A program made the translations under genes and the position numbers. This document shows positions 25,484-64,000 of a stretch of 64,000 nucleotides of DNA, one piece after another. The stretch comes from Tubulanus polymorphus. Its lineage: Eukaryota > Animalia > Nemertea. The stretch lies in the NCBI RefSeq assembly GCF_964204645.1, contig NC_134029.1:24174950-24238949 (forward strand). Direction: 5' to 3'. Each line of letters starts with the position of its first letter. The stretch's first letter is position 1. Below the pieces are notes generated by a model, which saw only the letters and a list, made by a program, of their open reading frames with translations, was not told the DNA's origin and made no database searches.

Positions 25484-28400
25484 ATGGGTCTCTGTAAGAA
25501 GAAGTCGGGTGAAATGGAAGTAACCGATAAGAAAGATGACGCTGTTCGATTGAAGAAAGAAATCGGTTTAATCCACGGAATCAGTATTATAATTGGAGTA
25601 ATCGTCGGATCAGGAATCTTTGTTTCTCCGGTCGGAGTTTTAAAGAACACCGGATCGGTTGGAGTAGCGATGGTTTTATGGGTCGTATGCGGTTTATTTA
25701 GCGTTTTAGGAGCTGTTTGTTACGCGGAACTCGGGACGACGATCCCACGTTCAGGCGGCGAGTATATCTACATCCTGAAGGCGTTCGGGCCGCTGCCCGC
25801 ATTTTTATGTTTATGGATTAATTTTATTTGTATCGGCGCCGTCAGTAACGCCGCTAATTCTCTCATATTCGCGACGTACGTTTTAAAACCGATGTTTCCG
25901 ATGTGCGAACCTCCCGAAATCGCTTTACAACTCATCGGAGCTGTTGCCATCAGTAAGTTCAACTTACCAGTATCTTTTTATCTTCAGTTTTGTCAGAATT
26001 AAGTTTCCTATAATCAATATTAGATAGACAAAATGTATTCAGCTACGAGAAGGATCGTTGTCAATTTTACTGGTCGATATGAAATTGTTTTTAATTGATG
26101 GTGCACAGGATTTTTCTCGAGAGCATGCAGTACAATGACATTCTACGATCAATCTAGAATTTGCGACTGATAAGTCGTCACATTACTGAAGTCATCTCTG
26201 TTTGAGTCCCAATTTTATCAATATGGACTTAGTATGCTTAAATGAATTGATTTAGTTTATGTTAGTGTTTAGTAACCGGATTGTTTATCGTTATTATTTT
26301 CAGCGTTTTTGACCGCAGTCAATTGTTTCAATGTGAAATGGGCTGCAAAAGTCGCAGTACAATGACATTCTACGATCAATCTAGAATTTGCGACTGATAA
26401 GTCGTCACATTACTGAAGTCATCTCTGTTTGAGTCCCAATTTTATCAATATGGACTTAGTATGCTTAAATGAATTGATTTAGTTTATGTTAGTGTTTAGT
26501 AACCGGATTGTTTATCGTTATTATTTTCAGCGTTTTTGACCGCAGTCAATTGTTTCAATGTGAAATGGGCTGCAAAAGTCGCAGTAGTTTTCACGGCATC
26601 GAAACTCATAGCTTTATTTACTGTAATCATCACCGGATTCGTGTATTTAGCTAAAGGTATCTATTGAAGCATCTTCCTCGGCAATTTGTAATGTATTTAT
26701 CTATGTGTGAGAACGTGTTAGCAGAGATAACTGATAACCACGATAACATGGATAATGCATACCCGTCGTTTTTGCAGGTAACACGGAATACTTACAAAAT
26801 ACATTTGAAGGCAGTTCATCCTCGGTTGGTGCTTACGCACTTGCATTTTATTCCGGATTTTGGGCTTTCGCCGGCTGGTAGGTTTCTCTAAAGACCCGGC
26901 TTCGAAGTTGTCGGTTTAATTTGAAATAAATTCATCTTTGATCTTAATGTAGATCTTTTGGCTTTGGATTCTTACAATATTTTAGTCGATAAACTATTAA
27001 GAGCCCTTGAAAATTATCGGTACTCGTTTCCTATCAGTTTGAACTTGATAAGTATGTTTTTGTTTCTTTTCAGGAACTACTTGAATTTTCTCGTAGATGA
27101 ACTGATAAACCCGAGGAAGTATGTATTATGTTTATATCATTGTATTCATTCTCTAAATAGAATGTTTATTGACCTAAGAAAGTGTTGAATTACCCTTTGT
27201 TAATAGTCTCCCAGCAAGAGAAGGAGAAAGAGAGGGTGAACTATTAGAAATTAAACGCAGTTGTTCCTGGCCAAATTTAGCTTGGTCAAAAATGCTTGTG
27301 TGATTGCGGCAATAGTTATTAGACCTCTCTCTCTCTCTCTCCCATCACGCTACTGTATAAACCGGTAAAACACAGACACGACTTATAAATGGCTATTTTA
27401 CGTGCTCAGTAGTCTATAGTCTGTAACTCGGGTGCCAGGTGGTGGTGACAGATTTTTTCCCATTCATTTAATGGTTTCGGTCGTTTATCGGAGCACTCAG
27501 TAACGACACAGGCACACATTCAGTCAACGCTGTCTGGTATTTTATTGATCAGTTCATCGCCTCACTGACCCTGAAATTAATCTACGTATTCCACGGGTGT
27601 TCACTACTCTCTCTCCATGGGGAAAATTGACATCAATTACTTGATGAACTTTGATATCAGGATTAATTCAGTCTGTGCTATTCAACAGTTTATCTACACT
27701 GACAATTCGGTAGTCTGCACTTGCAAATGAGCTAGATTATCACGTGTTCCACATGACAACATTTCTAAACATGTTTAAACATCTATATAACATTATGACG
27801 GCTGCGCTCTCCAACTGTCCCTGAATTTACCTCGTGCTGCCTTGCGGGGAAAATCCTGTTTCATAAATATCACATTGTAGTTATCTATTTAATGGTGATT
27901 TCCATAGCTTTGTAAACATAATGAATCAGTTGTTTATTTACTCATCAATTCACTTTTATTAATTATAGTTTGATAAGTGAAAGTGTCTTATTTATAACGT
28001 TTTGTTCATCTTGATGAACTCCTCTTTTGAGCTCTGAAAATAGTAAATTTATATTATTTGGAATGAAATAACGGGAAATGTTATGATCCAATAAAGATAT
28101 TTCATGGTTGTCATAAATGGTTTTATTGCGTAAATACTTAACTCGCTATTCTGATAGTCCGCGCTTTCAAAGAATATTTTAGGGTTCATTTCGGTGTGAA
28201 ATAAACTTAAGTACGTGTGATCAAACGTGTTACCAGTCGCCACAAAAGTAACCAATAGCAAGTTAATCGAACATTTGAGTTACAAAAAATACATGAAACT
28301 GCCCCCAGTAATAAGACAAATCTATGAAGGTACCGTAAATTGAATATTGAATGCATTGTTTCGAGTGTATTTGTAGCAATCTATCATTAACTACGTATAA

Positions 28401-36067: not shown

Positions 36068-39000
36068 ATGAATAAATATCAGGTTTTAGGAATAGTTGGA
36101 GAGGGTGAGTGGTTTGTCTGGTATTATCTGTCTGTCTATCTGTCTGACCCGTATTTAAAACAATTTGTTTTATTTTAGGGGCCTATGGTGTTGTATTGAG
36201 ATGTCGATTAAAGGTAAGCATTAGATACCACAGGGGCTTGTATCAGAGTTGTAGGTAATGTAAAAACAATAGGTAATCTGTTTATCCAATGTCTATATAG
36301 AATAACATATAGACATTGGATTAACAGATAACCTATTGTTTTTACATTACCTACAACTCTGATACAAGCCCCTGTGTCAAATACCGGACAATCTACGCTA
36401 GAAATTGTTTATTCAAGTAGGTCGTGCTAGGCCAACATTGTCACCTATTTAGCCTAGGCTTGTTGGATCTTATGTAAAATGGTTGTTAAATATTATTTCA
36501 GGAAAGTGGAGCTATGGTCGCTATAAAGAAATTTAAAGATAGTGAAGGTCAGTTTGTGGTTTAGTAAACAAACTATTCAACTATTCAAACATTGTCTATT
36601 TCGAAATGTCAATATTTACAAGTATGTAATATATTGAAACTGAGCACAATTGAATAAACAATAGTTTTACATGAAAGGCTTTTGATAGACACAGACATCA
36701 CACCTGCCTATAAGCTGTCTGATTCATGCTTATAGGCTGTCTGATTCCTGCCTAAAGGCTGTCTGATTCATGCCAATCAGCTCTCTGATTCCTGCCTATA
36801 AGCTCTGATTCCTTCCTATCAGCTGTCTGATTCCTTCTTATAAGCTCTCTGATTCCTGCCTATCAGCTGTCTGATTCCAGCATATAAGCTGTCTCTGTCT
36901 GATTCCTGCATAAAAGCACTCTGATTCCTTCTTATAGGCTGTCTGATTGCTGCCTATCAGCTCTCTCATTGCTGTCTATCAGCAGCTGTCTGATTTACTG
37001 TAGTTAGACGTGATGTATGTGGTTTGTTGTTTGTAGAGAACGATGATGTGCGTCGTACAACTTTACGCGAGTTAAAAATGTTACGTTCGTTGAAACAAGA
37101 AAATATCGTAGAATTGAAAGAAGCATTTCGTCGTAGAGGAAAACTCTATTTAGTCTTCGAATATATCGAAAAGGTAAATGAGAAAATCACCGTTTAAAAG
37201 CTACCTTGAAAAGAGCAGCGAAGAATTCACAAGACCCGTTTCCACGCTTCTGAGTTTAAGTTTTACTCAGAGTTAACTCTAACTCTAACTCACAATTGTA
37301 GAACTCGGTCCTGGAGATTTAACTCAAAATAAAGATAACTTGATTAGTTCACAGACAATTAATTAATTACTCCGTCGAGTCAAATCTAAACTCACAGCTG
37401 TGGAACTGGATCCTGAGTTCAGAGTTAACTCTAACCTCACAACTGTGGAACTGGAACCTGAGTTCACAGTTAACTCTAACTCACAACTGTGAAACTGGAC
37501 CCTGAGTTCACAGTTAACTCTAAATGACAACTGTGAAACTGGATCATGAGTTCACAGTTAACTCTAACTCACAATTGTGGAACTGGATCATGAGTTCACA
37601 GTTAACTCTAACTCACAACTGTGGAACTGGATCCTGAGTTCACAGTTAACTCTAAATGACAACTGTGAAACTGGATCATGAGTTCACAGTTAACTCTAAC
37701 TCACAATTGTGGAACTGGATCCTGAGTTCAGAGTTAACTCTAAATGACAACTGTGGAACTGGATCCTGAGTTCAGAGTTAACTCTAAATGACAACTGTGG
37801 ATTTGGATCCTGAGTTCAGAGTTAACTCTAAATGACAACTGTGGAACTGGATCCTGAGTTCAGAGTTAACTCTGACAACTGTGGAACTGGATCCTGAGTT
37901 CAAAGTTAACTCTAAATGAAAACTGTGGAACTGGATGTTTACACGTATTAAAGCTGTATTGTTTGATATGTATAGAATATGTTAGAAGTATTGGAAGAAG
38001 CTCCTAATGGTGTCGCTGTAGATACAGTACGTAGTTATATTTATCAACTATGCAACGCTATTCACTGGTGTCACAGTAATGAAATTATTCACAGAGGTAA
38101 TTATTATTACTCATATTCTAACTCGAATCTTTCATTAAAAACTGTCTCTCATTATTTTGTGTGTTTCTATCTTTAGATATCAAACCTGAAAATCTACTCA
38201 TCAGTAAAGAAGGAGTTTTGAAACTATGCGATTTTGGTAAGTGTGACACGGTATTTCGTCACTATCACTGCGCACTGCTGCATGATTCATACAAATGAAT
38301 TTATTTTGAACAGGTTTTGCTCGGAATTTAACGACTCCAGGAAGTGCTAATTACACTGATTATGTCGCAACGCGGTGGTACAGAGCTCCGGAATTATTGT
38401 TAGGGTAAGTGTTCAAATGGATACAAGTGTAGTAATCCTTACCTAACTCAGACAAACTGAGACAATTAAGATTGGTCTGAGGTATGCAAAGTCAGTGTCT
38501 GTTTCTCTGAGTTTAAGAAAGAAATCATAAAAATGATTCATTGTTGTCTGTGTTGGCTGTGTCTTGAGTAGGGCAAAGTTTACTGTACAAACTGTGTTAA
38601 GATATTTAGTTATATTAAACTCATTATATATTGATAATAGAGCTCGTTACGGGAAAGCAGTGGATGTCTGGTCTATAGGATGTATCCTAGGTGAATTAAG
38701 TGACGGTCAACCTTTGTTTCCCGGAGAGAGTGAAATAGATCAGTTGTACATCATTCAGAAGATTATCGGTCCCCTTCCTTCTCGCCAGATGGAGCTGTTT
38801 TACAATAATCCGCGATTCTCTGGACTTCGAGTGAGTAACAAACAAATCAATCTTATTTGAATATTTTCAATATTTGAAAATATTGCCACAGTTGAACATT
38901 AGTCATGGCTTTTAACTCAGATACATGTTGGTTAAAAATAACCAGCGGATAAATGTAACCATACTAACAATCACATTTTAATTGCCAACTATCCAATGGT

Positions 39001-45004: not shown

Positions 45005-48000
45005 TTCAGTGAACTAATCGATACAGCACCCCCTAGAGGAATATCATTGAACTACGCTATCAATACAGCACCCCCTACAGGAATATCAGTGAACTACACC
45101 ATCAGTACAGCGGCCCCCTACAGGAATATCAATATCCTACAACTTAAATACAGCACCCCCTAGAGGAATATCAGTGAAACCCTATCGATAGCACCCCCTA
45201 GACGTATTTCAGTGAACTACACTATCAATACAGCACCCCCTAGAGGAATATCATTAAACTACACTATCAATACAGCACCCCCTAGAGGTATTTCAGTGAA
45301 CTACACCATCAGTACATCACCCCCTAGAGGAATATCAGTGAACTACACTATCAATACAACACCCCCTAGAGGTATTTCAGTGAACTACACTATCAATACA
45401 ACACCCCCTAGAGGTATTTCATTGAACTACACTATCAATACAGCACCCCCTAGAGGAATATCATTGAACTACACTATCAATACAGCACCCCCTAGAGGTA
45501 TTTCAGTGAACTACACCATCAGTACATCACCCCCTAGAGGAATATCAGTGAACTACACTATCAATACAGAACCACCTAGAGGAATATCAGTGAACTACAC
45601 AATCAATACAGCACCCCCTAGAGGTATTTCAGTGAACTACACTATCAATACAACACCCCCTAGAGGTATTTCAGTGAACTACACTATCAATACAGCACCC
45701 CCTAGAGGTATTTCAGTGAACTACACTATCAATACAACACCACCTAGAGGAATATCAGTGAAACACTATCGATAGCACCCCCTAGAGGTATTTCGGTGAA
45801 CTACACTATCAATACAGCACCCCCTAGAGGAATATCAGTGAACTACACTATCAATACAGCACCCCCTAGAGGTATTTCAGTGAATGACACTATCATACAG
45901 CACCCCCTAGAGGAATATCAGTGAACTACACTATCAATACAGAACCACCTAGAGGAATATCAGTGAACTACACTATCAATACAGCACCCCCTAGAGGTAT
46001 TTCAGTGAATGACAATATCATACAGCATCCCCTAGAGGAATATCAGTGTACTACACTATCAATACAGCACCCCCTAGAGGTATTTCAGTGAACTACACTA
46101 TCAATACAGCACCCCCTAGAGGTATTTCGGTGAACTACACCATCAATACAGCACCCCCTAGAGGAATATCAGTGAACTAAACTATCAATACAGCACCCCC
46201 TAGAGGTATTTCGGTGAACTACACCATCAGTACACCACCCCCTAGAGGAATATCAGTGAACTACACTATCAATACAGCACCCCCTAGAGGTATTTCAGTG
46301 ATTTACACCATCAGTACATCACCCCCTAGAGGAATATCAGTGAACTACACTATCAATACAGAACCACCTAGAGGAATATCAGTGAACTACACAATCAATA
46401 CAGCACCCCCTAGAGGTATTTCAGTGAACTACACTATCAATACAATACCCCCTAGAGGTATTTCAGTGAACTACACTATCAATACAGCACCCCCTAGATG
46501 AATATCAGTGAACTACACTATCAATACAACACCCCCTAGAGGTATTTCAGTGAACTACACTATCAATACAACACCCCCTAGAGGTATTTCAGTGAACTAC
46601 ACTATCAATACAGCACCCCCTAGAGGAATATCAGTGAACTACACTATCAATACAGAACCACCTAGAGGAATATCAGTGAACTACACTATTAATGCAGCAC
46701 CCCCTAGAGGAATATCATTGAACTACACTATCAATACAGAACCCCCTAGAGGAATATCAGTGAAACACTATCAATGGCACCCCCTAGAGGTATTTCAGTG
46801 AACTACACCATCAATACAGCACCCCCTAGAGGAATATCAGTGAACTACACAATCAATACAGCACCCCCTAGAGGTATTTCAGTGAACTACACTATCAATA
46901 CAACACCCCCTAGAGGTATTTCAGTGAACTACACCATTAATACAGCACCCCCTAGAGGAATATCAGTGAACTACACAATCAATACAGCACCCCCTAGAGG
47001 TATTTCAGTGAACTACACCATCAGTACATCACCCCCTAGAGGAATATCAGTGAACTACACTATCAACACAGAACCACCTAGAGGAATATCAGTGAACTAC
47101 ACAATCAATACAGCACCCCCTAGAGGTATTTCAGTGAACTACACTATCAATACAACACCCCCTAGAGGTATTTCAGTGAACTACACTATCAATACAGCAC
47201 CCCCTAGATGAATATCAGTGAACTACACTATCAATACAACACCCCCTAGAGGTATTTCAGTGAACTACACTATCGACACATCCCCTAGAGGAATATCAGT
47301 GAACTACACTATCAATACAGCACCCCCTAGAGGTATTTCAGTGAACTACACTATCAATACAACACCCCCTAGAGGTATTTCAGTGAACTACACTATCAAT
47401 ACAGCACCCCCTAGAGGAATATCATTGAACTACACTATCAATACAGAACCACCTAGAGGAATATCAGTGAAACACTATCAATGGCACCCCCTAGAGGTAT
47501 TTCAGTGAACTACACCATTAATACAGCACCCCCTAGAGGAATATCAGTGAACTACACTATCAATACAGAACCACCTAGAGGAATATCAGTGAAACACTAT
47601 CGATAGCACCCCCTAGAGGTATTTCGGTGAACTACACTATCAATACAGCACCCCCTAGAGGAATATCAGTTAACTACACTATCAATACAGCACCCCCTAG
47701 AGGAATATCAGTGAAACACTATCGATAGCACCCCCTAGAGGTATTTCGGTGAACTACACCATCAATACAGCACCCCCTAGAGGAATATCAGTGAACTACA
47801 CTATCAATTGAGAACCACCTAGAGGAATATCAGTGAACTACACTATCAATACAGAACCACCTAGAGGAATATCAATGAACTACACTATCAACACAGCACC
47901 CCCTAGAGGAATATCAGTGAACTACACTATCAATACAGAACCACCTAGAGGAATATCAGTGAACTACACTATCAACACAGCACCCCCTAGAGGAATATCA

Positions 48001-48608
48001 GTGAACTATACTATCGATAGCACCCCCTAGAGGTATTTCGGTGAAACACTATCAATGGCACCCCCTAGAGGTATTTCAGTGAACTACGTACCATCAATAC
48101 AGCACCCCCTAGAGGAATATCAGTGAACTAAACTATCAATATAGCACCCCCTAGAGGAATATCATTGAACTACACTATCAATACAGCAACTCCTAGAGGA
48201 ATATCGGTGAACTACACCATCAATACAGCACCCCCTAGAGGAATATCACTGAACTACACTATCAATACAGAACCACCTAGAGGAATATCAGTGAAACACT
48301 ATCGATAGCACCCCCTAGAGGTATTTCAGTGAACTACGTACCATCAATACAGCACCCCGTAGAGGAATATCAGTGAACTACACTATCAATACAGAACCAC
48401 CTAGAGGAATATCAGTGAACTACACCATCAACACAGCACCCCCTAGAGGAATATCAGTGAACTTCACTATTAATGCAGCACCCCCTAGAAGAATATCAGT
48501 GAACTTAGAGGAATATCAGTGAATTACGTTATCAATACAGCACCCCCTAGAGGTATTTCAGTGAACTACACTATCGACACATCCCCTAGAGGAATTTCAG
48601 TGAACTAT
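45005..48608. repeat. 42-bp satellite (~85 copies), each unit with a CTCF-like motif on the minus strand
   Basis: Unit tcagtgaactacactatcaatacagcaccccctagaggaata; reverse complement contains TGTAGTTCA-N8-CCTCTAGGGGGTGCTG. Confidence 0.95.
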
Positions 48609-48734
48609 ACACAGAAATGAGTGTTATCGATTCATTCCTGGTGATGTGGATACGAACAGGTCCTAGGTTCAAATCCACAGATACTGATGTTTGGTGATTG
48701 CTAAAAAGGGGTTCTGTTTTTAAGATCTATCCAT

Positions 48735-48946
48735 TTCGAATTGTCCAAAACTTGGTTTAAATGAGCAACGTAATTATTTATCTAACGTTATTGAAATTAA
48801 ATAGAAACGACTGTAGTTATTGACACCGGTTTCTGATGGAATTGTGTACCTTGAAATTCTGGGCTAAACAGTCGTTTCTAAATAAGTTCAAAAACGTTAG
48901 ACGAATAATTACGTTGCCTAATTAACGAGTTTAAAAGTAATTTGAA
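48735..48946. repeat. Imperfect ~210-bp inverted repeat
   Basis: gcaacgtaattatttatctaacgtt...tagaaacgactgt paired with acagtcgtttcta...aacgttagacgaataattacgttgc. Confidence 0.7.
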
Positions 48947-49304
48947 TATTTTTTGAATTCATAGATATACCTAGGATACTAAATATTTTTATTTCGGGAG
49001 GTTTTTGTATCTCTAATTGGGGTCCAAAGGGTTTTTTGATAATTGACTCCCATCTATTGGATTTTCAGTGAACTATAATCTCAATAGATGCTTTGTTAAG
49101 AATCCGTATAGATTTTCATGAATGGCAGATAGGAATGTTACTCTGGCAGTCGAGGGATCTTGCGATAATCTAATCGTTGTGTAGTTAGATAAATTATAGA
49201 TATTTCATTAAAACAGTCAATGGTTTAGTGTTTCTACTGACATGAATGATTTTCGAATGAAAAATTAAACCGTGTTCTTTTAAAACCACGTAAAAAGAGA
49301 CACA

Positions 49305-50125
49305 GTATCAGTAATTACTGGATTCGAACCCTGGACACCCCTGTACATCCTCTATTCAGCATCAAGGCCATTCTGAATCAGCGACAGTAATAACTGTGTT
49401 CGAACCCTGGACACCCCTGTTCATCCTTTATTCAGCATCAAGGCCATTCTGAATCAGTGTCAGTAATTACTGGGTTCAAACCCGGGAAACCCCTGTACAT
49501 CCTCTATTCAGCTTTGATTTGGAGATGCTGAATACGCATTGTACAGTGGTGTCCCGGGTTCGAACCCAGATACTGATTCAGAGTGCGGGTCCTGAATAGA
49601 GGTACTGGGGTTCCGACCGTACGTTGCTGCCGCTATGCTCATCGTTAGTGGGATTTTCATACACTAACGCAAGTTAACTCTGGCATGCTAGGGATAATGG
49701 CAACAACTCGATTGCCAGAGTTGACTTACATTAGTGTATGAAAATCCCGCTAACGATGAGCATAGCGGCAGCACCATACGGTCGGGACCCCAGTACCTCT
49801 ATTCAGGACCCGCACTCTGAATCAGTATCTGGGTTCGAACCCGGGACACCACTGTACAATGCCTATTCAGCGTCTCCAAATCAGTGTCAGTTAAGACAGG
49901 GTTCGAACCCGGGACACCCCCTGTACATTGTCAATTCAGACTCTGAATTCGTACCCTGGACACCCTAGTACATCCTCTACTCAGCATCAGGACCACTCTG
50001 AATCAGTGTCAGTAATTACTGGGTTCGAACTCTGGACATCCCTGTACATCCTCTATTCAACATCAGGACCACTCTGTGAATCAGTGTCAGTAATTACAGG
50101 ATTCGAACTCTGGACATCCGCTCAG
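49305..50125. repeat. 76-bp B-box-containing tandem units with an embedded ~370-bp hairpin (49515-49883)
   Basis: Unit ctgtacatcctctattcagcatcaggaccactctgaatcagtgtcagtaattactgggttcgaaccctggacaccc; arms 49515-~49686 and ~49712-49883 are reverse complements. Confidence 0.85.
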
Positions 50126-50131
50126 TTTAGG

Positions 50132-50610
50132 ATAAGATAAGATAAGATAAGATAAGATATTTATTTCACTCCAACCATAAGAATGGTACGTGGAGGCAAG
50201 ATTGAATACAAAATATGAAATATAAAAATTTACAAAACATGAACAGAATTATATACATACATACAGACAAAACAAAATAGGAATTAACAAAATTTAAAAT
50301 CTAATTTTTCAGTAAAACTATTTACAGACAAAGCATGTACAGAGATTGAATTATATACAGCAAGATATATCACACGTATATAAACAATTCATTGGAGGGA
50401 TTTGTATAAACTTATACCTAACTGGATGAATTTAGCTATTCGTGGGGTATGATTCCTTAATATTTCTAGGTTTCTGGACATACTTAAATGGATGGAATTA
50501 TCACGCAGATCGCTTAGCAAAGTGCAGTCATAAATGAAGTGAAGCTCATCGCCTACGGTTAATAATGAAAAATGGAAAAAATGATCTTCAACCTTGTAAT
50601 ATAGCAATTT
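50132..50610 (-). mobile_element. 5'-truncated LINE 3' end inserted in the repeat block
   Basis: Minus ORF with GDELHFIYDC...LR, typical of the C-terminal CCHC region of LINE ORF2; ends with AATAAA and (TCTTA)n tail at 50132-50165. Confidence 0.7.
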
Positions 50611-50942
50611 CCAAAATCTTGATGTATTAAATTAGGCAGCCAGAAATATTCACTCAATCAGTCGCTTGCTGGTTCAGACTGAATGGAAGATTGTTTGAAT
50701 GAACCGGAACCAAATTTCCAATTATGTACTTCGATTTAAAAAAGAAAATTCTGTAAATTAGACCGCCGATCACACAACTATATCTGTACTTCGATTTCCG
50801 ATTTCAAACCCCCTGTTTCGCTCCCGGCAGGTGTGGTGGGTCTGTAAGGGACACTCAATCAAAAAATCCAACGAAATCTACAAACCAAATAAACAACAGG
50901 GACAATCCCTATTTTAAGATCCAAAAAAAAAATAAAAAAAAT

Positions 50943-53900
50943 AATGATGCTATGATCGCCATCTATTGGATTTTGGCAGAACCGACTAGAAAGCTCTTAC
51001 TTGTCTCATCGACTCTTCTTCAGTGCGTTAAAATGACATCTGTATTCAGCATCAGGACACTGTGAATCAGTATCAGTAATTACAGGATTCGAACCCTGGA
51101 CACCCCTGTACATCCTCTATTCAGCATCAGGACCACTCTGAATCAGTGTCAGTAATTACTGGGTTCGAACCCTGGACGCCCCTGTACATCCTCTATTCAG
51201 CATCAGGACCACTCTGAATCAGTGTCAGTAATTACTGGGTTCGAAACCGGGACATCCGCTTAGTTTGATAATGCTATGATCGCCATCTATTGGATTTTGG
51301 CAGAACCGACTAGATACCTCTTACTTGTCTCACCGACTTTTCATCAGTGCGTTGAAATCACACTTGCCATCTGGTGGATTTCTATGACACTACAGTCTAA
51401 TGATGGTTATATCCACCAGATGGCGAGAGTAATTTTAAAGGATTAAAGAAGAGTCTTTGAGACAAGTAAGAGCTGTCTAGTCAGTTCAGGCAAATTCCAA
51501 TAGATGGCGATAACGTTAGAAAACCTTGATATCCCTCCCGTCGGGTACTTGTACATCCTCTATTCAGCATCAGGACCACTCTGAATCAGTGTCAGTAATT
51601 ACTGGGTTCGAAACCGGGACATCCGCTTAGTTTGATAATGCTATGATCGCCATCTATTGGATTTTGGCAGAACCGACTAGATAGCTCTTACTTGTCTCAC
51701 CGACTCTTCTTCAGTGCATTGAAATCACACTTGCCATCTGGTGGATTTCTATGACACTACAGTCTAATGATGGTTATATCCACCAGATGGCGAGAGTAAT
51801 TTTAAAGGATTAAAGAAGAGTCTTTGAGACAAGTAAGAGCTGTCTAGTCAGTTCAGGCAAATTCCACTAGATGGCGATAACGGTAGAAAACCTTGATATC
51901 CCTCCCGTCGGGCACCCCTGTACATCCTCTATTCAGCATCAGTACCACTCTGCATCAGTATCAGTGATTACTGGTTTCGAACCCGGGACATCCGCTTAGT
52001 TTAATTATGATGCTATGATCGCCATCTATTGGATTTTGGCAGAACCGACTAGATAGCTCTTACTTGTCTCACCGACTCTTCTTCGGTGCGTTGAAATCAC
52101 ACTTGCCATCTGGTGGATTTCTATGACACTACAGTCTAATGATGGTTATATCCACCAGATGGCGAAAATCATTTTAAAGGATTAAAGAAGAGTCGGTGAG
52201 ACAAGTAAGAGCTGTCTAGTCAGTTCAGGCAAATTCCAATAGATGGCGAAAACGTTAGAAAATCTTGATATCCCTCCCGTCGGGCACCCCTGTACATCCT
52301 CTATTCAGCATCAGGACCACTCTGCATCAGTATCAGTGATTACTGGGTTCGAACCCTGGACACCCCTGTACATCCTCTATTCAGCATCAGGTCCACTCTG
52401 AATCAGTGTCAGTAATTACTGGGTTCGAAACCGGGACATCTGCTTAGTTTGATAATGCTATGATCGCCATCTATTGGATTTTGGCAGAACCGACTAGATA
52501 GCTCTTACTTGTCTCACCGACTCTTCTTCAGTGCGTTGAAATCACACTTGCCATCTGGTGGATTTCTATGACACTACAGTCTAATGATGGTTATATCCAC
52601 CAGATGGCGAGAGTGATTTTAACGGATTAAAGAAGAGTCAGTGAGACCACTAAGAGCTGTCAAGTCAGTTCAGGCAAATTCCAATAGATGGCGATAACGG
52701 TAGAAAACCTTGATATTCCTCCCGTCGGGTACCCCTGTACATCCTCTATTCAGCATCAGTACCACTCTGCATCAGTATCAGTGATTACTGGTTTCGAACC
52801 CTGGACATCCGCTTAGTTTAATTATGATGCTATGATCGCCATCTATTGGATTTTGGCAGAACCGACTAGATAGCTCTTACTTGTCTCACCGACTCTTCTT
52901 CGGTGCGTTGAAATCACACTTGCCATCTGGTGGATTTCTATGACACTACAGTCTAATGATGGTTATATCCACCAGATGGCGAAAATCATTTTAAAGGATT
53001 AAAGAAGAGTCGGTGAGACAAGTAAGAGCTGTCTAGTCAGTTCAGGCAAATTCCAATAGATGGCGATAACGTTAGAAAATCTTGATATCCCTCCCGTCGG
53101 GCACCCCTGCACATCCTCTATTCAGCATCAGGACCACTCTGCATCAGTATCAGTGATTACTGGGTTCGAACCCTGGACACCCCTGTACATCCTCTATTCA
53201 GCATCAGGACCACTCTGAATCAGTGTCAGTAATTACTGGGTTCGAAACCGGGACATCTGCTTAGTTTGATAATGCTATGATCGCCATCTATTGGATTTTG
53301 GATGAACTGACTAGATGCTCTCATTTGTCTCACCGACTCTTCTTCGGTGCGTTGAAATCACACTCGCCATCTGGTGGATTTCTATGACACTACAGTCTAA
53401 TGATGGTTATATCCACCAGATGGCGAAAATCATTTTAAAGGATTAAAGAAGAGTCGGTGAGACAAGTAAGAGCTGTCTAGTCAGTTCAGGCAAATTCCAA
53501 TAGATGGCGATAACGTTGGAAAATCTTGATATCCCTCCCGTCGGGCACCCCTGTACATCCTCTATTCAGCATCAGGACCACTCTGCATCAGTATCAGTGA
53601 TTACTGGGTTCGAACCCTGGACACCCCTGTACATCCTCTATTCAGCATCAGGACCACTCTGAATCAGTGTCAGTAATTACTGGGTTCGAAACCGGGACAT
53701 CCGCTTAGTTTGATAATGCTATGATCGCCATCTATTGGATTTTGGCAGAACCGACTAGATAGCTCTTACTTGTCTCACCGACTCTTCTTCAGTGCGTTGA
53801 AATCACACTTGCCATCAGGTGGATTTCTATGACACTACAGTCTAATGATGGTTATATCCACCAGATGGCGAGAGTGATTTTAACGGATTAAAGAAGAGTC

Positions 53901-56900
53901 AGTGAGACCACTAAGAGCTGTCAAGTCAGTTCAGGCAAATTCCAATAGATGGCGATAACGGTAGAAAACCTTGATATTCCTCCCGTCGGGTACCCCTGTA
54001 CATCCTCTATTCAGCATCAGTACCACTCTGCATCAGTATCAGTGATTACTGGTTTCGAACCCTGGACATCCGCTTAGTTTAATTATGATGCTATGATCGC
54101 CATCTATTGGATTTTGGCAGAACCGACTAGATAGCTCTTACTTGTCTCACCGACTCTTCTTCGGTGCGTTGAAATCACACTTGCCATCTGGTGGATTTCT
54201 ATGACACTACAGTCTAATGATGGTTATATCCACCAGATTGCGAAAATCATTTTAAAGGATTAAAGAAGAGTCGGTGAGACAAGTAAGAGCTGTCTAGTCA
54301 GTTCAGGCAAATTCCAATAGATGGCGATAACGTTAGAAAATCTTGATATCCCTCCCGTCGGGCACCCCTGCACATCCAGCATCAGGACCACTCTGCATCA
54401 GTATCAGTGATTACTGGGTTCGCACCCTGGACACCCCTGTACATCCTCTATTCAGCATCAGGACCACTCTGAATCAGTGTCAGTAATTACTGGGTTCGAA
54501 ACCGGGACATCTGCTTAGTTTGATAATGCTATGATCGCCATCTATTGGATTTTGGATGAACTGACTAGATGCTCTCATTTGTCTCACCGACTCTTCTTCG
54601 GTGCGTTGAAATCACACTCGCCATCTGGTGGATTTCTATGACACTACAGTCTAATGATGGTTATATCCACCAGATGGCGAAAATCATTTTAAAGGATTAA
54701 AGAAGAGTCGGTGAGACAAGTAAGAGCTGTCTAGTCAGTTCAGGCAAATTCCAATAGATGGCGATAACGTTAGAAAATCTTGATATCCCTCCCGTCGGGC
54801 ACCCCTGCACATCCTCTATTCAGCATCAGGACCACTCTGCATCAGTATCAGTGATTACTGGGTTCGAACCCTGGACACCCCTGTACATCCTCTATTCAGC
54901 ATCAGGACCACTCTGAATCAGTGTCAGTAATTACTGGGTTCGAAACCGGGACATCCGCTTAGTTTGATAATGCTATGATCGCCATCTATTGGATTTTGGC
55001 AGAACCGACTAGATAGCTCTTACTTGTCTCACCGACTCTTCTTCAGTGCGTTGAAATCACACTTGCCATCTGGTGGATTTCTATGACACTACAGTCTAAT
55101 GATGGTTATATCCACCAGATGGCGAGAGTGATTTTAACGGATTAAAGAAGAGTCAGTGAGACCACTAAGAGCTTTCAAGTCAGTTCAGGCAAATTCCAAT
55201 AGATGGCGATAACGGTAGAAAACCTTGATATTCCTCCCGTCGGGTACCCCTGTACATCCTCTATTCAGCATCAGTACCACTCTGCATCAGTATCAGTGAT
55301 TACTGGTTTCGAACCCTGGACATCCGCTTAGTTTAATTATGATGCTATGATCGCCATCTATTGGATTTTGGCAGAACCGACTAGATAGCTCTTACTTGTC
55401 TCACCGACTCTTCTTCGGTGCGTTGAAATCACACTTGCCATCTGGTGGATTTCTATGACACTACAGTCTAATGATGGTTATATCCACCAGATGGCGAAAA
55501 TCATTTTAAAGGATTAAAGAAGAGTCGGTGAGACAAGTAAGAGCTGTCTAGTCAGTTCAGGCAAATTCCAATAGATGGCGATAACGTTAGAAAATCTTGA
55601 TATCCCTCCCGTCGGGCACCCCTGCACATCCTCTATTCAGCATCAGGACCACTCTGCATCAGTATCAGTGATTACTGGGTTCGAACCCTGGACACCCCTG
55701 TACATCCTCTATTCAGCATCAGGACCACTCTGAATCAGTGTCAGTAATTACTGGGTTCGAAACCGGGACATCTGCTTAGTTTGATAATGCTATGATCGCC
55801 ATCTATTGGATTTTGGATGAACTGACTAGATGCTCTCATTTGTCTCACCGACTCTTCTTCGGTGCGTTGAAATCACACTCGCCATCTGGTGGATTTCTAT
55901 GACACTACAGTCTAATGATGGTTATATCCACCAGATGGCGAAAATCATTTTAAAGGATTAAAGAAGAGTCGGTGAGACAAGTAAGAGCTGTCTAGTCAGT
56001 TCAGGCAAATTCCAATAGATGGCGATAACGTTAGAAAATCTTGATATCCCTCCCGTCGGGCACCCCTGCACATCCTCTATTCAGCATCAGGACCACTCTG
56101 CATCAGTATCAGTGATTACTGGGTTCGAACCCTGGACACCCCTGTACATCCTCTATTCAGCATCAGGACCACTCTGAATCAGTGTCAGTAATTACTGGGT
56201 TCGAAACCGGGACATCCGCTTAGTTTGATAATGCTATGATCGCCATCTATTGGATTTTGGCAGAACCGACTAGATAGCTCTTACTTGTCTCACCGACTCT
56301 TCTTCAGTGCGTTGAAATCACACTTGCCATCTGGTGGATTTCTATGACACTACAGTCTAATGATGGTTATATCCACCAGATGGCGAGAGTGATTTTAACG
56401 GATTAAAGAAGAGTCAGTGAGACCACTAAGAGCTGTCAAGTCAGTTCAGACAAATTCCAATAGATGGCGATAACGGTAGAAAACCTTGATATCCCTCCCG
56501 TCGGGTACCCTGTACATCCTCTATTCAGCATCAGTACCACTCTGCATCAGTATCAGTGATTACTGGTTTCGAACCCGGGACATCCGCTTAGTTGAATTAT
56601 GATGCTATGATCGCCATCTATTGGATTTTGGCAGAACCGACTAGATAGCTCTTACTTGTCTCACCGACTCTTCTTCGGTGCGTTGAAATCACACTTGCCA
56701 TCTGGTGGATTTCTATGACACTACAGTCTAATGATGGTTATATCCACCAGATGGCGAAAATCATTTTAAAGGATTAAAGAAGAGTCGGTGAGACAAGTAA
56801 GAGCTGTCTAGTCAGTTCAGGCAAATTCCAATAGATGGCGATAACGTTAGAAAATCTTGATATCCCTCCCGTCGGGCACCCCTGCACATCCTCTATTCAG

Positions 56901-57422
56901 CATCAGGACCACTCTGCATCAGTATCAGTGATTACTGGGTTCGAACCCTGGACACCCCTGTACATCCTCTATTCAGCATCAGGACCACTCTGAATCAGTG
57001 TCAGTAATTACTGGGTTCGAAACCGGGACATCCGCTTAGTTTGATAATGCTATGATCGCCATCTATTGGATTTTGGCAGAACCGACTAGATAGCTCTTAC
57101 TTGTCTCACCGACTCTTCTTCAGTGCGTTGAAATCACACTTGCCATCAGGTGGATTTCTATGACACTACAGTCTAATGATGGTTATATCCACCAGATGGC
57201 GAGAGTGATTTTAACGGATTAAAGAAGAGTCAGTGAGACCACTAAGAGCTGTCAAGTCAGTTCAGACAAATTCCAATAGATGGCGATAACGGTAGAAAAT
57301 ATTGATATCCCTCCCGTCGGGCACCCTGTACATCCTCTATTCAGCATCAGGACCACTCTGCATCAGTGTCAATATTTATTGGGTTCGAACCTGGGACATC
57401 TGTACATCCTCTATTCAGCATC
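50943..57422. repeat. Composite macrosatellite: ~230-bp fold-back unit plus 1-2 copies of the 76-bp B-box unit; 15 full and 1 partial monomers of ~371 or ~445 bp
   Basis: gatcgccatctattgg recurs at ~50953, 51278, 51646, 52017, 52463, 52834, 53279, 53723, 54095, 54533, 54977, 55349, 55794, 56238, 56609, 57054; each full unit closes with ccaatagatggcg-like sequence. Confidence 0.96.
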
Positions 57423-58395
57423 AATCTGAATGGCTTGTTTTCCAGTTGATTTCCGTGATATCTTATTCAGTTCAGGTTTCATACCATAAAACATGTCCAC
57501 ATGCTTTTGCCGTCCATATTAGAGCGACCTCGGGTCCAGTTTCAAGAAGATATTATTTGAATTCTTAACGGATTTAGTTTCTTCATTAACCCAGTTTGTT
57601 TTATCGAGTCTATAATCGTTTTTCGAGTGTCTATTGGGTGAATCCTTGTGGACAACGGTTGAATGATTCTGAAAAATGCATGATTTTAATTTAGGTTTTG
57701 GTCTCGTGTTTGATCGGGGGAGACTGGGGTGCTTCCTCGGTAATCTTATGAAATCTGATGTCCGGAAGCGATTTGAGCGCTCTCAGATACTTAAAGTTAT
57801 TGAATAAAACATTTAGCGACTTTTCACATCAGTTTCGTCGATCGCGAGGTCATCGTCAAACTTCGACAGTCGGATTCGACAAGGTCAAGTGCGCCACAGG
57901 CTTCTCATTTCCAATCTACTGCGACAAATAAGAATTCCCCGACATTTTGTCAGATTTATTAATTTAATTTTTTTAATTTCGCTTGATGAGATTGTCACGT
58001 GTGTAGTTTCAGTGCAGTTTACAACGTTTGTGTAATATTTCTCAGAATCCGGCGCGCGATCGGAGTAGTCGGTACTTTTCACCACATAGTTTGACCGTGA
58101 GCTAACCCTGGCAAGTGAGTCGATAATTAGTTCACGTATTTACCGCTATCGTTATATCTAGGGGCAGCACCAGACGGTTTAAAATCTGCCATCCGCTATT
58201 CCTACTGTGGCATGCGAATTAAAGAGTTTGTTTTGGATAGGTAATTCCACAATGCTGAGGCTTTATTATTGAAGAAACTACTTTCAATAAAGAGTTTAAA
58301 GCCCTTTTCTCAGAAACTATTCTTAATTTTCGTATTTATTTTCATTAAACTAGCGGTCTCGTCCGTGTTTTACTGTTACCCTTGACCTCGGCAAC

Positions 58396-58603: not shown

Positions 58604-59121
58604 ATGGGTCGAACTTTTGGAAATCTTGGAATAAAAGTGTACGGTATCGTGCAGTACAGTCTGTCACCGTTTGAGCAGAGAGCGTTCGCTGGTATCCTGA
58701 AAAACGGAATTCCCAACACGTTTAGACGTGTGAAGGGTCAAATATTTCGATTTATGCCGCGTAAGTATCTAATATCAGTCAATTTTCAGGACCATCCGGC
58801 ATCTATTTTTACTATGAGCTTCGTAAAGACTTTATTACACGATGATATTCTGTTTGCGGAACCACGTGCACGGATGTTGGTTAAGATCTTATATCGCCTC
58901 GGGAGTTTAATCAGACATTAGACCAGTGGAACTGGTTCCATAAATATCTACTAAACTTAACTCATGATTTTACAGATTTAATAGAATTGTATTGTGTATT
59001 GTGTTTAGTTTATTGTGTATTTTCAGCTCTGGTCGTTGCGTATTTAGTTTATGATTGGGGAACGAAAGAGAACGCCCGATTCAGCCGTAAAGATCCGGCT
59101 GAATTCGCTAATGACTCGTGA
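58604..59121 (+). CDS. UQCRQ: Cytochrome b-c1 complex subunit 8 (QCR8); 2 coding exons
   Basis: Exons 58604-58760 and 59027-59121: MGRTFGNLG...YSLSPFEQRAF...GIPNTFRR...YLVYDWG...RKDPAEFANDS*. Upstream UTR donor at ~58461, AATAAA at ~59248. Confidence 0.96.
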
Positions 59122-61299: not shown

Positions 61300-64000
61300 T
61301 CAGGATTGTTGAAGCGTCGATGATATTTGATCGTGGAATTCGTAAAGTTCCGTTAATTTATTTCCGACTTGTTGTTGAAGCTGAAGTAATTCCTGTCGTT
61401 CTCGCGACTTCGAAGATCTCTGAGATTCTAATTCCGATTTAGTTTTCGTCACCGTCGATTTCAATGATTCTCTCTCTTGTTCTAAAGCCTAAAATTTAAT
61501 CAAAAACCGACATCAGTTTTAAATTCTAAACCGATTCGATTAGATGAGGGACCATTCTGCTATCTCAGCCGACAAGTACAATGACTTTCTACTGTATTTT
61601 GTCTCGGATTTCACAAGACCAGTAATTTACTCAGCAAGGCATTGAATTCAGGGGATGTCTTAGCGTAAGAGCATTTTAAACCTCGATGTGCTCTGTGGCT
61701 TGTGGTGTATGCCGTTACGAGTGGAGAGGGTTAATTAATCCATTAACAAACCTCCCTCTAGTCTCTCTTTCTCAATAAGCTGCTCATTTAAAAATACTTT
61801 TCCCATTAATGAAAGATTAATCCTTATTAAAGGAAATCTATATTCAATTACTGCACATTCGATATTAATCATTGAATGTTTGCCTGCGTTGCACATAAAT
61901 GTGAGGGATAAAGGAAACCCTCACTAAAACCATGGAGTAATTATTTGTCATCCTCTGTCAGATTGTTGTGTAATGTACCTGAATTCGATCCAATAACTTT
62001 TTATTCTGACTTTCATATGGTAATAATTCATCGACTTTAGTCTTGAGATTTTTCACTTCCTGAAATGAAGAAATCATTCAATGTTTTAGTTTAATGTGAA
62101 ATGACACTGTAATCTTTAAAAATCCCGGGATCCAGGTCAACAGGTCTGGGTTGAATTCGTCTTTAAACATTGAAAATGTACAAATCTTAAGACTCTTAAC
62201 TCACAACTGAGTAACTGGGTCCAGCTCATACATCTTAGTAAAACCCTGGCTCACTCTCTAGATCTCAATAAAACCCCAAGATCTCTAGATCTCAGTAAAC
62301 CCCCCCCCCCCCACTCTAGATCTCAGTAAATCCACAGATCTCTAAATCTTAGTAAAACCACTAATGAAGTTAGTCTGTGACACTTGCTCTCAATAGTGTC
62401 GCGCTGTAGACAGTTATTAATAGTTCAGTTCAAATATCCCACATCAATTAACAATTTCATGTCAAATATAAATCACAAAATTGCGAACATTACGCAATAG
62501 TTTAATAGTTTATGCGAGATAAAGCGATTTGAAGATCAGAGATAAAATCAATTTATGGTAAATGGAAGTTTAAATGTTGAAATGAGTCACGTAAAAAATA
62601 AATCTACTTTTAGAAAAACTCATTTAAACCCCTGCAACAAGACAAATAGCTGCGTCTGTAGTTCTCAGTGGGATTACGAGTGATGCTTTACTATCAGTGC
62701 TTAGTGACAAGCGGATTCGAGTCCTGCTGTCTGTTTACATTGTGCAAGCTATACTTCAAAGGGTGTGGTCCTATGGTGAGGTTGAACGGACGATTCAATA
62801 GGGCTAGAGTCTTGGGAAACCAAGATTCAAATGATGTAAACCATGACAAACTTGATAATTTTGAAATTGAGTGGGTCTAATTTTCTGTTTATTCACTTAC
62901 AATCTCTTTATCTTTAGTTTCTAGATTCACAGCTGTTAGACGATCGGTCAGATCTGCTACTGTACTCTGTAATTGATGGTTTCTAACCTCCTCAGCATTA
63001 GCCTGTCCTTGTTCTAAATCAGCTACCTATAAATCAACAAACAAACATAACTTTACTTCATACATTCATGATAAACATAAATCTATCTCGCCGAAACCGA
63101 AGTACAATAGGCTGCAGTTTAGTTTCTTATAATCAGATATTAGTTTAAGTCCACTCAGATGACTAACTGCAGTACAAAGTTGAAATGATTTACGATTTAT
63201 TCTTGAACAATTGAACTGAATAAAATAAAACAGTAAATCAACTACGTACCTTGCGTCTTAATCGCGCGCATTCATCTTTATAAGACGCCAGCTGTTTCTT
63301 CCATTCTTCCACGTTTGAATTGCTCTCCTGTAAAGCCGTAGTTAATCGTGCGTTGTTGTTTTTCAGGGTTTGAAGTTCTATTTCCCATTTCTTCGCGTTC
63401 ATTGAGCTATTGAAAAAAATACAACCACATCAGTAAAACATTGGTAGGTACCGGGTCAGTACCGACATATCAGCGGGTCAGTACCGACATCAGTCAGTTC
63501 CAGGTCAGTACCGACATCGGTCAGTACCCGGTCAGTACCGTCATCAGTCAGTACCGGGTCAGTACCGACAGATCAGTGGGTCAGTACCGTCATCGGTAAG
63601 TACCCGGTCAGTACCGTCATCGGTCAGTACCCGGTCAGTACCGTCATCAGTCAGTACCGGGTCAGTACCGACAGATCAGTGGGTCAGTACCGACATCAGT
63701 CAGTTCCGGGTCAGTACTGACATCGGTCAGTACCGGGTCAGTACCAACAGATCACTGGGTCAGTACTGACATCAGTCAGTTCCGGGTCAGTACCGTCATC
63801 GGTCAGTACCCGGTCAGTACCGACACATCAGTGGGTCAGTGTGTAATACAAACCTCTGAGCTAGAGCCAGTTTCAGCCGATCATTTTCGTATTTTAATTG
63901 CCCGTCTGATGTATTTTCTGGAAGACCTGGTTTGTTACCCTTGTTTTTACGATCAGTCATCGAAGGTGAATTCTCTTTCAAGTTTTCTTCCAACTCTTTA
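61300..64000 (-). CDS. HOMER: Homer scaffold protein, C-terminal coiled-coil exons (5' part outside window)
   Basis: Exons 64000-63854 (partial), 63406-63250, 63026-62901, 62059-61979, 61488-61300. [54 protein letters not shown] matches the Homer coiled coil. Confidence 0.92.
63447..63840. repeat. Minisatellite built on GTCAGTACC filling a Homer intron
   Basis: Recurrent ggtcagtaccg/acatcagtcagt subunits. Confidence 0.9.

What the first reader, a model, noticed from the sequence alone, without database searches (positions are those of the whole stretch)
45005..57422. Candidate repeat-built insulator: ~12.5 kb with roughly 140 CTCF-like sites contributed by two different satellites
Seen: two repeat families with different unit size and architecture sit side by side between CDKL5 and UQCRQ and share one motif. 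The 42-bp unit reads (minus) TGTAGTTCA-N8-CCTCTAGGGGGTGCTG; the fold-back unit carries TGTAGTGTC-N8-CCACCAGATGGC, CCACCAGATGGCG and CCAATAGATGGCG. Established: the CTCF core is CCASYAGRKGGCRS, and zinc fingers 9-11 read an upstream TGCAGT/TGCAAT-type module at about this spacing; CTCF is present across most bilaterians, and CTCF-dense macrosatellites (DXZ4, FIRRE) organise mammalian chromatin. Inference: this block could be a massive CTCF/cohesin barrier or loop hub in an invertebrate; I know of no description of such a block here. Site count is a manual estimate (~85 plus ~60).
Basis: partly seen in the sequence, partly recalled or inferred. Interest (0 to 1): 0.88.

Follow-up and report, generated by a model that had tools for sequence, protein, structure and literature searches.

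The report
CTCF-motif repeat arrays in ribbon worm
In a ribbon-worm genome, two likely related tandem repeats pack 124 to 140 matches to the binding motif of the genome-folding protein CTCF into 12 kb, most likely because a motif-carrying mobile element was copied locally, and whether CTCF binds there or the block insulates anything is untested.

Summary
A 42-bp minisatellite (~85 units, 45017-48600) and a 15-unit array of a 233-bp fold-back plus 76-bp repeat (51262-57423) carry 124 CTCF-matrix hits at p<1e-4 (140 with a GC-matched background; matrix recalled), ordered <<<… then (<<>>)×15, with a 2.4-kb site-free gap. Shuffles and permuted matrices rarely match (≤0.1% reach the 42-mer's score); 0 of 17 other window repeats hit. 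All five site classes have T at -12, where human ZF10 contacts DNA. UQCRQ is identical to a Tubulanus polymorphus (Nemertea) protein. Corrections: the hits reduce to 3 independent site types; a hybrid copy at 49035-49086 links the two families, so they are likely kin; the fold-back looks like a dispersed MITE-type element; scores are moderate. Spiralian CTCFs keep the core fingers and the cohesin-binding YDF motif, but no nemertean ortholog, binding or Hi-C was shown, and echinoderm and fly data argue against assuming vertebrate-style insulation. Best reading: transposon-borne CTCF sites, recently amplified in tandem; binding likely, selected insulator unproven. Mammalian counterparts are known (DXPas34, ICCE, DXZ4); the scan noted a similar repeat in a shark.

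The parts
45017..48600 (-). 42-bp minisatellite, ~85 head-to-tail units; each unit is about one extended CTCF-like site (upstream module, 9-bp spacer, core), all co-oriented on the minus strand
49035..49086 (-). Hybrid, degenerate site: core end identical to the outer fold-back site over 16 nt, upstream part 23 of 28 identical to the 42-mer; matrix score 5.8 bits (below threshold)
49303..50119 (.). Older copies of the 76-bp unit (49303-49512, 49947-50119) around a second fold-back with 171-nt arms (49515-49883); no CTCF-like hits
50131..50940 (-). Dispersed repeat(s) inserted at the 76-mer/fold-back junction, with a GATAA microsatellite end; LINE 3' fragment by recalled resemblance only
   Evidence: no Pfam hit
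50944..51038 (-). Truncated fold-back (outer left arm only), one CTCF-like site at 50954
51036..51254 (.). Three tandem copies of the 76-bp high-copy unit with a palindromic B-box-like motif
51262..57423 (.). Tandem array of 15 composite units (233-bp fold-back with 101-nt arms, 82-84% complementary, 31-nt loop, plus linker and one or two 76-bp units), in a 3-unit higher-order repeat of ~1.26 kb; four CTCF-like sites per unit, order << >>
37039..37173 (+). CDKL5 kinase exon (gene ends at an inferred stop near 43218, ~1.8 kb left of the block)
58604..59121 (+). UQCRQ, start codon ~1.2 kb right of the block; exon 1 identical to the T. polymorphus protein

Best explanation
The block is two tandem arrays, a 42-bp minisatellite and a fold-back/76-bp composite, that likely descend from one family of mobile-element-borne CTCF-type sites and were likely amplified here recently by ordinary unequal exchange or slippage. 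The fold-back behaves like a dispersed MITE-type element whose two arms each carry two sites, so every copy brings a << >> set; the 42-mer is one extended site repeated. CTCF is predicted to bind at least part of the sites when they are accessible (ZF3-7 on the core, ZF9-10 on the upstream module), and the motif was probably kept earlier in the element's history because something reads it. Any insulation at this locus would be a by-product of copy number, not a maintained host function.
For: Shown: motif beyond chance per family (21 and 12 of 20000 unit shuffles reach the 42-mer score; site plus upstream module 1-2 of 20000; two sites in one arm 2 of 5000; permuted matrices hit both families 2 of 5000, two sites per arm 0 of 5000); 0 of 17 other window repeats hit. 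Kinship: hybrid copy, 0 of 2000 shuffles reach its alignment score to the 42-mer. Constraint in the past: random change at the 7-10 of 19 positions separating the 42-mer site from the fold-back sites keeps a p<1e-4 hit in only 0.1-2% of trials, outer vs inner sites 3-15%; all 6 site versions have T at -12 and purines at -14, and 5 of 6 a purine at -13, the T:A pair contacted by ZF10 Gln536 in the human structure (PMC10484683). Dispersed element: contigs with 15-29 differences and foreign flanks end exactly at the arm tip 51511; summed depth 26-98 times single-copy level against 15 local copies (depth is only a rough guide). Youth: four fold-backs are identical, three others identical, in a 3-unit higher-order repeat. 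Protein side: Lingula, annelid and mollusc CTCFs keep ZF3-7, the ZF10 RQKQ contact and, in most, the YDF motif.
Against: No binding data. The matrix is vertebrate and recalled. The 42-mer core departs from consensus at positions 3 and 12 and has no hit at p<1e-6. Sites were picked because they match, so some agreement among classes is built in. Direct 42-mer vs fold-back alignment is weak (score 21): kinship rests on the one hybrid copy, which could be a chimera. No target-site duplication or transposase was identified. ZF11 Arg566 is His in all 12 invertebrate proteins aligned and the upstream motif is not enriched in Drosophila (PMC12885311). No nemertean CTCF was seen by name.
Confidence: 0.55

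Rival explanations
1. Selected, repeat-built boundary or loop hub: CTCF loads densely, stalls cohesin from both sides (reverse sites facing CDKL5, forward sites facing UQCRQ) and separates a regulated kinase gene from a housekeeping promoter.
For: Overall divergent order of 124 sites; intergenic position; two arrays of the same motif at one locus; the 42-bp unit is about one full CTCF footprint; upstream-motif sites are the ones tied to insulation in human (PMC12885311); co-oriented Dxz4 sites set contact direction and ICCE units hold two sites per strand; spiralian CTCF keeps YDF; B-box-like motifs are interleaved.
Against: A palindrome gives a divergent or convergent order by construction. 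Motif positions in the 42-mer are not less often variable (6 of 14 vs 12 of 28 positions, P=1.0; variant bases 16/700 vs 100/1400 but copies are not independent). Arm mismatches in cores 2 of 30 vs 14 of 71 elsewhere, P=0.14. 42-mer depth is ~6x in one sample vs ~43x in the other, a weak hint of large length variation. Echinoderm boundaries show no orientation pattern (PMC13317027); even DXZ4/FIRRE deletions have little phenotype.
Confidence: 0.17
2. The motif is not used by CTCF here: it is an end-recognition or other site of the element itself (transposase, YY1-like or ZNF143-like reader), or the arrays are packaged as silent chromatin so that the sites are empty.
For: The outer site lies at the very tip of each inverted arm, where transposase sites usually lie (general knowledge); the 3' half of the fold-back core resembles the YY1 motif and the upstream module resembles the ZNF143 accessory motif (both recalled, not tested); CpG observed/expected is 0.16 in the 42-mer vs 0.85 in the flank, compatible with past methylation.
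Against: Differences among site classes fall at positions CTCF tolerates (8 and 9) and the six invariant core positions are the matrix's six most informative (partly circular); the upstream T is in register in all classes; T at position 12 mimics 5mC, which human CTCF tolerates through Glu362, a residue kept in spiralians.
Confidence: 0.2
3. Copy number is inflated or the array is mis-assembled, so the real block is much smaller.
For: No listed contig piece spans the stretch; many fold-back copies are identical.
Against: Units carry distinct, patterned variants and a regular higher-order repeat; run X1 depth of ~43x on the last three 42-mer units and a single-copy contig crossing the array's right edge (48546-48830) fit a real local array.
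Confidence: 0.04
4. If the block insulates, it does so without CTCF: through TFIIIC on the B-box-like motifs of the 76-bp unit, or through DNA mechanics of a 42-bp (four helical turns) period.
For: 28 plus-strand and 31 minus-strand B-box-like matches in the window, all but 3 inside 49300-57430; Helitron minisatellites reported as mechanical insulators in C. elegans (10.64898/2026.08.08.743475, abstract).
Against: The 76-mer shows no tRNA gene, Rfam tRNA hit or stable fold; the B-box-like motif is a simple palindrome present in a family with ~800-2400x depth genome-wide; curvature was not computed.
Confidence: 0.04

Closest known systems
DXPas34 minisatellite (mouse Tsix; PMC3149622, passages)
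   Same: Short monomer (34 bp vs 42 bp) with one CTCF site per monomer, near a promoter, possibly of mobile-element origin, site number variable between taxa.
   Different: DXPas34 is CpG-rich, has binding and genetic data and is rodent X-linked; the 42-mer is CpG-poor, has an upstream module in each unit and no functional data.
ICCE and DXZ4/FIRRE tandem repeats (PMC6125249, PMC6985041, passages)
   Same: Tandem units with CTCF motifs; ICCE has up to four per unit, two per strand, like the fold-back; Dxz4 sites are co-oriented like the 42-mer.
   Different: Units are kilobases long, ChIP-verified, conserved across mammals and tied to the inactive X; here units are 42 and 372-445 bp, look young, and nothing is verified.
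Transposon-borne CTCF sites in mammals (PMC6979391, PMC9902604: search listing only) and clustered CTCF sites at TAD borders (PMC6945661, abstract)
   Same: A mobile element carries CTCF motifs and seeds clusters.
   Different: Here an inverted-repeat element with four sites in a nemertean, amplified in tandem rather than only dispersed.
TE-derived satellite-like arrays of bivalves (Cg_HINE, Pearl) and the Tetris foldback (PMC7492417, passages)
   Same: Short satellite-like arrays made from all or part of a non-autonomous element, sometimes two arrays side by side, in a spiralian.
   Different: HINE substructures (subTIR, 5' microsatellite, 3' palindrome flanking the array) were not identified here; no CTCF motif is mentioned in the passages read.

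Membership tests
CTCF-bound tandem-repeat boundary (DXZ4/ICCE/DXPas34 kind) | Tandem array with a CTCF motif in most units | tested here: met
   65-81 of ~85 units; 58 of 60 possible sites in 15 fold-backs
CTCF-bound tandem-repeat boundary (DXZ4/ICCE/DXPas34 kind) | Kilobase-size monomer (macrosatellite) | tested here: not met
   42 bp and 367-445 bp; DXPas34-scale, not DXZ4-scale
CTCF-bound tandem-repeat boundary (DXZ4/ICCE/DXPas34 kind) | Host has a CTCF ortholog with intact fingers | tested here: inconclusive
   Brachiopod, annelid, mollusc orthologs found; no nemertean named among 120 of 456 listed hits
CTCF-bound tandem-repeat boundary (DXZ4/ICCE/DXPas34 kind) | CTCF/cohesin occupancy in vivo | not testable with these tools
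   Only assembled contigs of 4 runs of unrecorded library type were offered
CTCF-bound tandem-repeat boundary (DXZ4/ICCE/DXPas34 kind) | Boundary, stripe or loop in Hi-C | not testable with these tools
   No contact data accessible
CTCF-bound tandem-repeat boundary (DXZ4/ICCE/DXPas34 kind) | Motif conserved at the syntenic locus across species / under constraint | tested here: inconclusive
   No congener available; within-array tests not significant; between-class retention unlikely under random change
MITE-type non-autonomous DNA transposon (fold-back unit) | Short, non-coding, terminal inverted arms | tested here: met
   233 bp, 101-nt arms, 82-84% complementary; no ORF of 90 aa in the array body
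MITE-type non-autonomous DNA transposon (fold-back unit) | Dispersed copies sharing a discrete end | tested here: inconclusive
   Two listed X1 contigs with other flanks end at 51511; depth above the local copy number; only 32 of 8456 pieces were shown
MITE-type non-autonomous DNA transposon (fold-back unit) | Target-site duplication and a matching autonomous partner | not testable with these tools
   No genome held; tandem context hides insertion sites
tRNA-derived SINE (76-bp unit) | tRNA-related head with A and B boxes | tested here: inconclusive
   B-box-like consensus present; ARAGORN 0 genes, no Rfam tRNA match to E 5, fold z 0.3-0.5
HINE / non-autonomous Helentron | subTIR, inverted repeat and microsatellite left of the array, subTIR and palindrome right of it | not tested
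   Not searched systematically; not evident on reading the flanks

The most novel reading that the evidence does not exclude
A nemertean has built a 12-kb divergent CTCF super-boundary out of a mobile inverted-repeat element that carries four extended CTCF sites and a minisatellite that is one CTCF footprint repeated ~85 times; it blocks cohesin in an orientation-dependent way and varies in length between individuals, giving a natural test of vertebrate-style loop extrusion in Spiralia.
Probability: 0.17. Interest if true: 0.82.

Novelty: new member of a known kind. Interest (0 to 1): 0.46.

Why it matters
Whether CTCF makes orientation-dependent boundaries outside vertebrates is open: reviews call spiralian evidence fragmentary and echinoderms show no orientation rule. 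A locus with 124-140 oriented sites is the extreme case: if even this gives no boundary or stripe in Hi-C, vertebrate-style insulation is unlikely in this lineage; if it does, it is a strong positive. The repeat also suggests that spiralian CTCF may read the upstream ZF9-10 module, thought absent in flies, and that a non-mammalian transposon spreads CTCF sites. Until binding is shown it is a sequence-level candidate of a kind known in mammals.

Tried and rejected
No whole genome is held, so the genome-wide satellite comparison could not be run; the 17 other tandem repeats of the window served instead. The look-up of sequencing runs listed 4 runs, one study, no RNA holder listed: no evidence on expression. 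The first homology search with a CDKL5 exon gave unnamed fragments and no taxon. Rfam hits on the fold-back are plant miRNA precursor models far below gathering score (69.5 vs 144 bits at best), i.e. generic long hairpins: rejected. tRNA gene in the 76-mer: rejected. A coding reading of the 42-mer (14-codon frame, open up to 203 aa): rejected, since 38-, 41-, 43- and 44-nt units and stops break the frame. A gene on the minus strand at 57423-58190 that would put the arrays in an intron: no Pfam hit, one weak phmmer hit (E 5e-6, 41 aa, 33%) among 1.8 billion proteins: not established. Purifying-selection tests within arrays were not significant. The arm comparison failed on an indexing slip and was redone. 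The CTCF search did not list a nemertean. Earlier-findings look-ups by sequence and by place were empty. Supplements were not read; the CTCF alignment figure of PMC13317027 could not be seen.
Full report
Host and setting. UQCRQ exon 1 (58604-58759) is 100% identical to an NCBI protein labelled Tubulanus polymorphus, a nemertean; the next of 14 hits is 63%. The gene to the left is CDKL5. The block lies between the inferred CDKL5 stop (~43218) and the UQCRQ start, both on the plus strand.

Anatomy. (a) 45017-48600: ~85 units of 42 bp with occasional 38-44-bp variants. (b) 48600-51260: a mosaic of other repeats: a 58-nt inverted repeat, copies of a 76-bp unit, a fold-back with 171-nt arms, an insertion ending in a GATAA microsatellite, and a truncated copy of the main fold-back. 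Contigs of four coded runs pile up on most of this spacer at hundreds to thousands of times the single-copy level, so it is ordinary dispersed repeat DNA. (c) 51262-57423: 15 units, each a 233-bp fold-back (101-nt arms, 31-nt loop; DNA fold -82 kcal/mol), a linker and one or two 76-bp units, arranged as a 3-unit higher-order repeat; within each of the three types copies differ by 0-3 bases, between types by 7-18, which points to recent amplification.

Motif check. I used a vertebrate CTCF matrix recalled from memory (MA0139.1-like; column sums were consistent, but it was not fetched). At p<1e-4 it finds 65 + 1 + 58 = 124 sites with a uniform background and 140 with a window-GC background, against 10 and 22 in the remaining 51.6 kb. 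The order is 65 reverse sites, a 2.4-kb gap, then one reverse site and << >> per unit. Scores are moderate: 13-15 bits for the common 42-mer, 11-17 for the fold-back, maximum 26. Because copies are not independent I tested single units: 21 and 12 of 20000 dinucleotide shuffles of two 42-mer variants reach the observed score, 1-2 of 20000 give a site with an upstream module, 2 of 5000 arm shuffles give two sites, and none of 3000 unit shuffles more than two. Column-permuted matrices hit both families in 2 of 5000 trials. None of 17 other tandem repeats in the window has a hit. The match is therefore not chance, though it was noticed among many windows.

Upstream module. In the human ZF3-11 structure the specific upstream contacts are T:A at -12 and C:G at -10 (PMC10484683, passages and section 13). 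All five site classes and the hybrid have T at -12; C at -10 is present in the 42-mer, both outer sites and the hybrid, not in the inner sites. Of 65 42-mer sites, 55 have RR-T-x-C in register; of 59 fold-back sites all have RR and T, 31 also C. Of the 10 hits outside the block, 4 have RR and T, more than the ~1 expected, a post hoc hint only. T at core position 12 of the 42-mer is spatially like 5mC, which human CTCF accepts; T at position 3 is a real departure.

One family or two. At 49035-49086 a single degenerate copy shares 16 identical bases with the outer fold-back site and 23 of 28 upstream bases with the 42-mer, including spacer and flank (0 of 2000 shuffles). The simplest reading is common descent, which removes the 'two independent satellites' argument. 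It raises another: the 42-mer site differs from fold-back sites at 7-10 of 19 matrix positions, and random change of that size would keep a hit only 0.1-2% of the time (outer vs inner: 3-15%). So either homology with constraint or convergence; both say that something has read this motif during the repeat's history. This does not say that the present arrays are selected: variable positions in the 42-mer are as common in the motif as outside (6 of 14 vs 12 of 28), and arm mismatches are only non-significantly rarer in cores.

Mobile origin. In one search, summed depth over the fold-back is 36-98x (X1), 34-69x (X2) and 26-33x (X3) the single-copy level, above 15 local copies in most bins even allowing for both arms mapping; listed single-copy contigs with 15-29 differences stop at the arm tip 51511 and continue in other sequence; a variant fold-back/76-mer junction not present in the window is seen in three runs. 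This fits a dispersed MITE-type element often paired with the 76-mer (800-2400x). The 42-mer is at 43x in X1, consistent with this locus alone, and ~6x in X2 and X3 (another sample), a weak hint of length polymorphism. The tool warns that depth is not copy number, and only 32 of 8456 pieces were shown.

The reader protein. A motif scan of metagenome contigs gave 79 loci, many with 11-finger CTCFs. Searching with one gave 456 hits, 120 listed, including named CTCFs of Lingula, Paralvinella, bivalves, limpets and octopus, but no named nemertean. Lingula CTCF aligns to human CTCF (E 1e-108) with near-identical ZF3-6, the N-terminal YDF motif (its cohesin-binding role is recalled), Glu362, Asp451 and the ZF10 QKQ; ZF9 Arg508 is kept; ZF11 Arg566 is His. 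An ortholog in Tubulanus is likely but not shown; flatworms lack one (PMC10658182, passages).

Function. Nothing here measures binding or insulation. For: divergent order, density of 9-18 sites per kb, upstream modules, which mark insulating sites in human (PMC12885311, passages and section 10). Against: the palindrome forces a symmetric order; the upstream motif is not enriched in Drosophila; echinoderm boundaries are CTCF-enriched without orientation (PMC13317027, passages); spiralian evidence is limited to motif enrichment in cephalopods (PMC10658181, PMC13652810, passages); satellite arrays may be silenced, and the 42-mer is CpG-depleted. I put CTCF binding to some units at about 0.6 and a selected boundary at about 0.17.

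Known counterparts and novelty. DXPas34, ICCE and DXZ4/FIRRE cover both architectures in mammals; TE-derived satellite-like arrays are common in bivalves. Eight full-text searches listed no CTCF-motif tandem array or CTCF-bearing MITE in a spiralian; I judged most listings by title and abstract start, and the library lacks most subscription papers. PMC7535936 (passages) gave no nemertean-specific CTCF statement. An earlier scan note on a shark minisatellite supplied the DXPas34 lead, which I checked. Verdict: real, beyond chance, a new member of a known kind, worth a Hi-C look and an EMSA; interest 0.46.

Noticed in passing
window 49515-49883: A second fold-back with 171-nt arms, 95% complementary, 27-nt loop; its arm ends resemble the 76-bp unit (~74%) and its centre is very high-copy (depth ~40,000 in X1).
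   Followed up: partly
window 50131-50940: Insertion splitting an older 76-mer/fold-back junction: GATAA microsatellite, a stretch resembling a LINE 3' end (recalled resemblance, no Pfam hit) and a very high-copy segment at 50650-50915 (depth up to 146,000 in X1).
   Followed up: partly
window 48757-48925: 58-nt inverted repeat (84%) whose right part is dispersed in the genome and leads into the hybrid CTCF-like site at 49035-49086.
   Followed up: partly
window 51036-57423 (76-bp unit): High-copy 76-bp repeat with a palindromic B-box-like motif; neither tRNA nor Rfam match.
   Followed up: partly
window 57423-58190, minus strand: Patchy coding-looking frames facing away from UQCRQ and ending at the array edge; no Pfam hit, one weak protein hit. 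Possibly a decayed gene or a first exon.
   Followed up: partly
window 17843, 40779, 60426: Three single CTCF-like sites scoring 15.5-18.6 bits, as strong as or stronger than those in the arrays.
   Followed up: no
window 13041-63840: Many other minisatellites (units 12-54 bp, a perfect 227-bp duplication at 26127-26586); none carries the motif. The genome is minisatellite-rich, which lowers surprise at the array as such.
   Followed up: partly
window 61300-64000, minus strand: Coiled-coil exons resembling Homer (recalled resemblance; Pfam gave only generic coiled-coil hits below cut-off). Left part of the window holds exons resembling an MFS transporter, arginyl-tRNA synthetase, a GPCR and an SLC7 transporter (by eye).
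   Followed up: no
window 45017-48600: 42 bp equals four helical turns at 10.5 bp, so all sites would lie on one face of the helix; curvature not computed.
   Followed up: no
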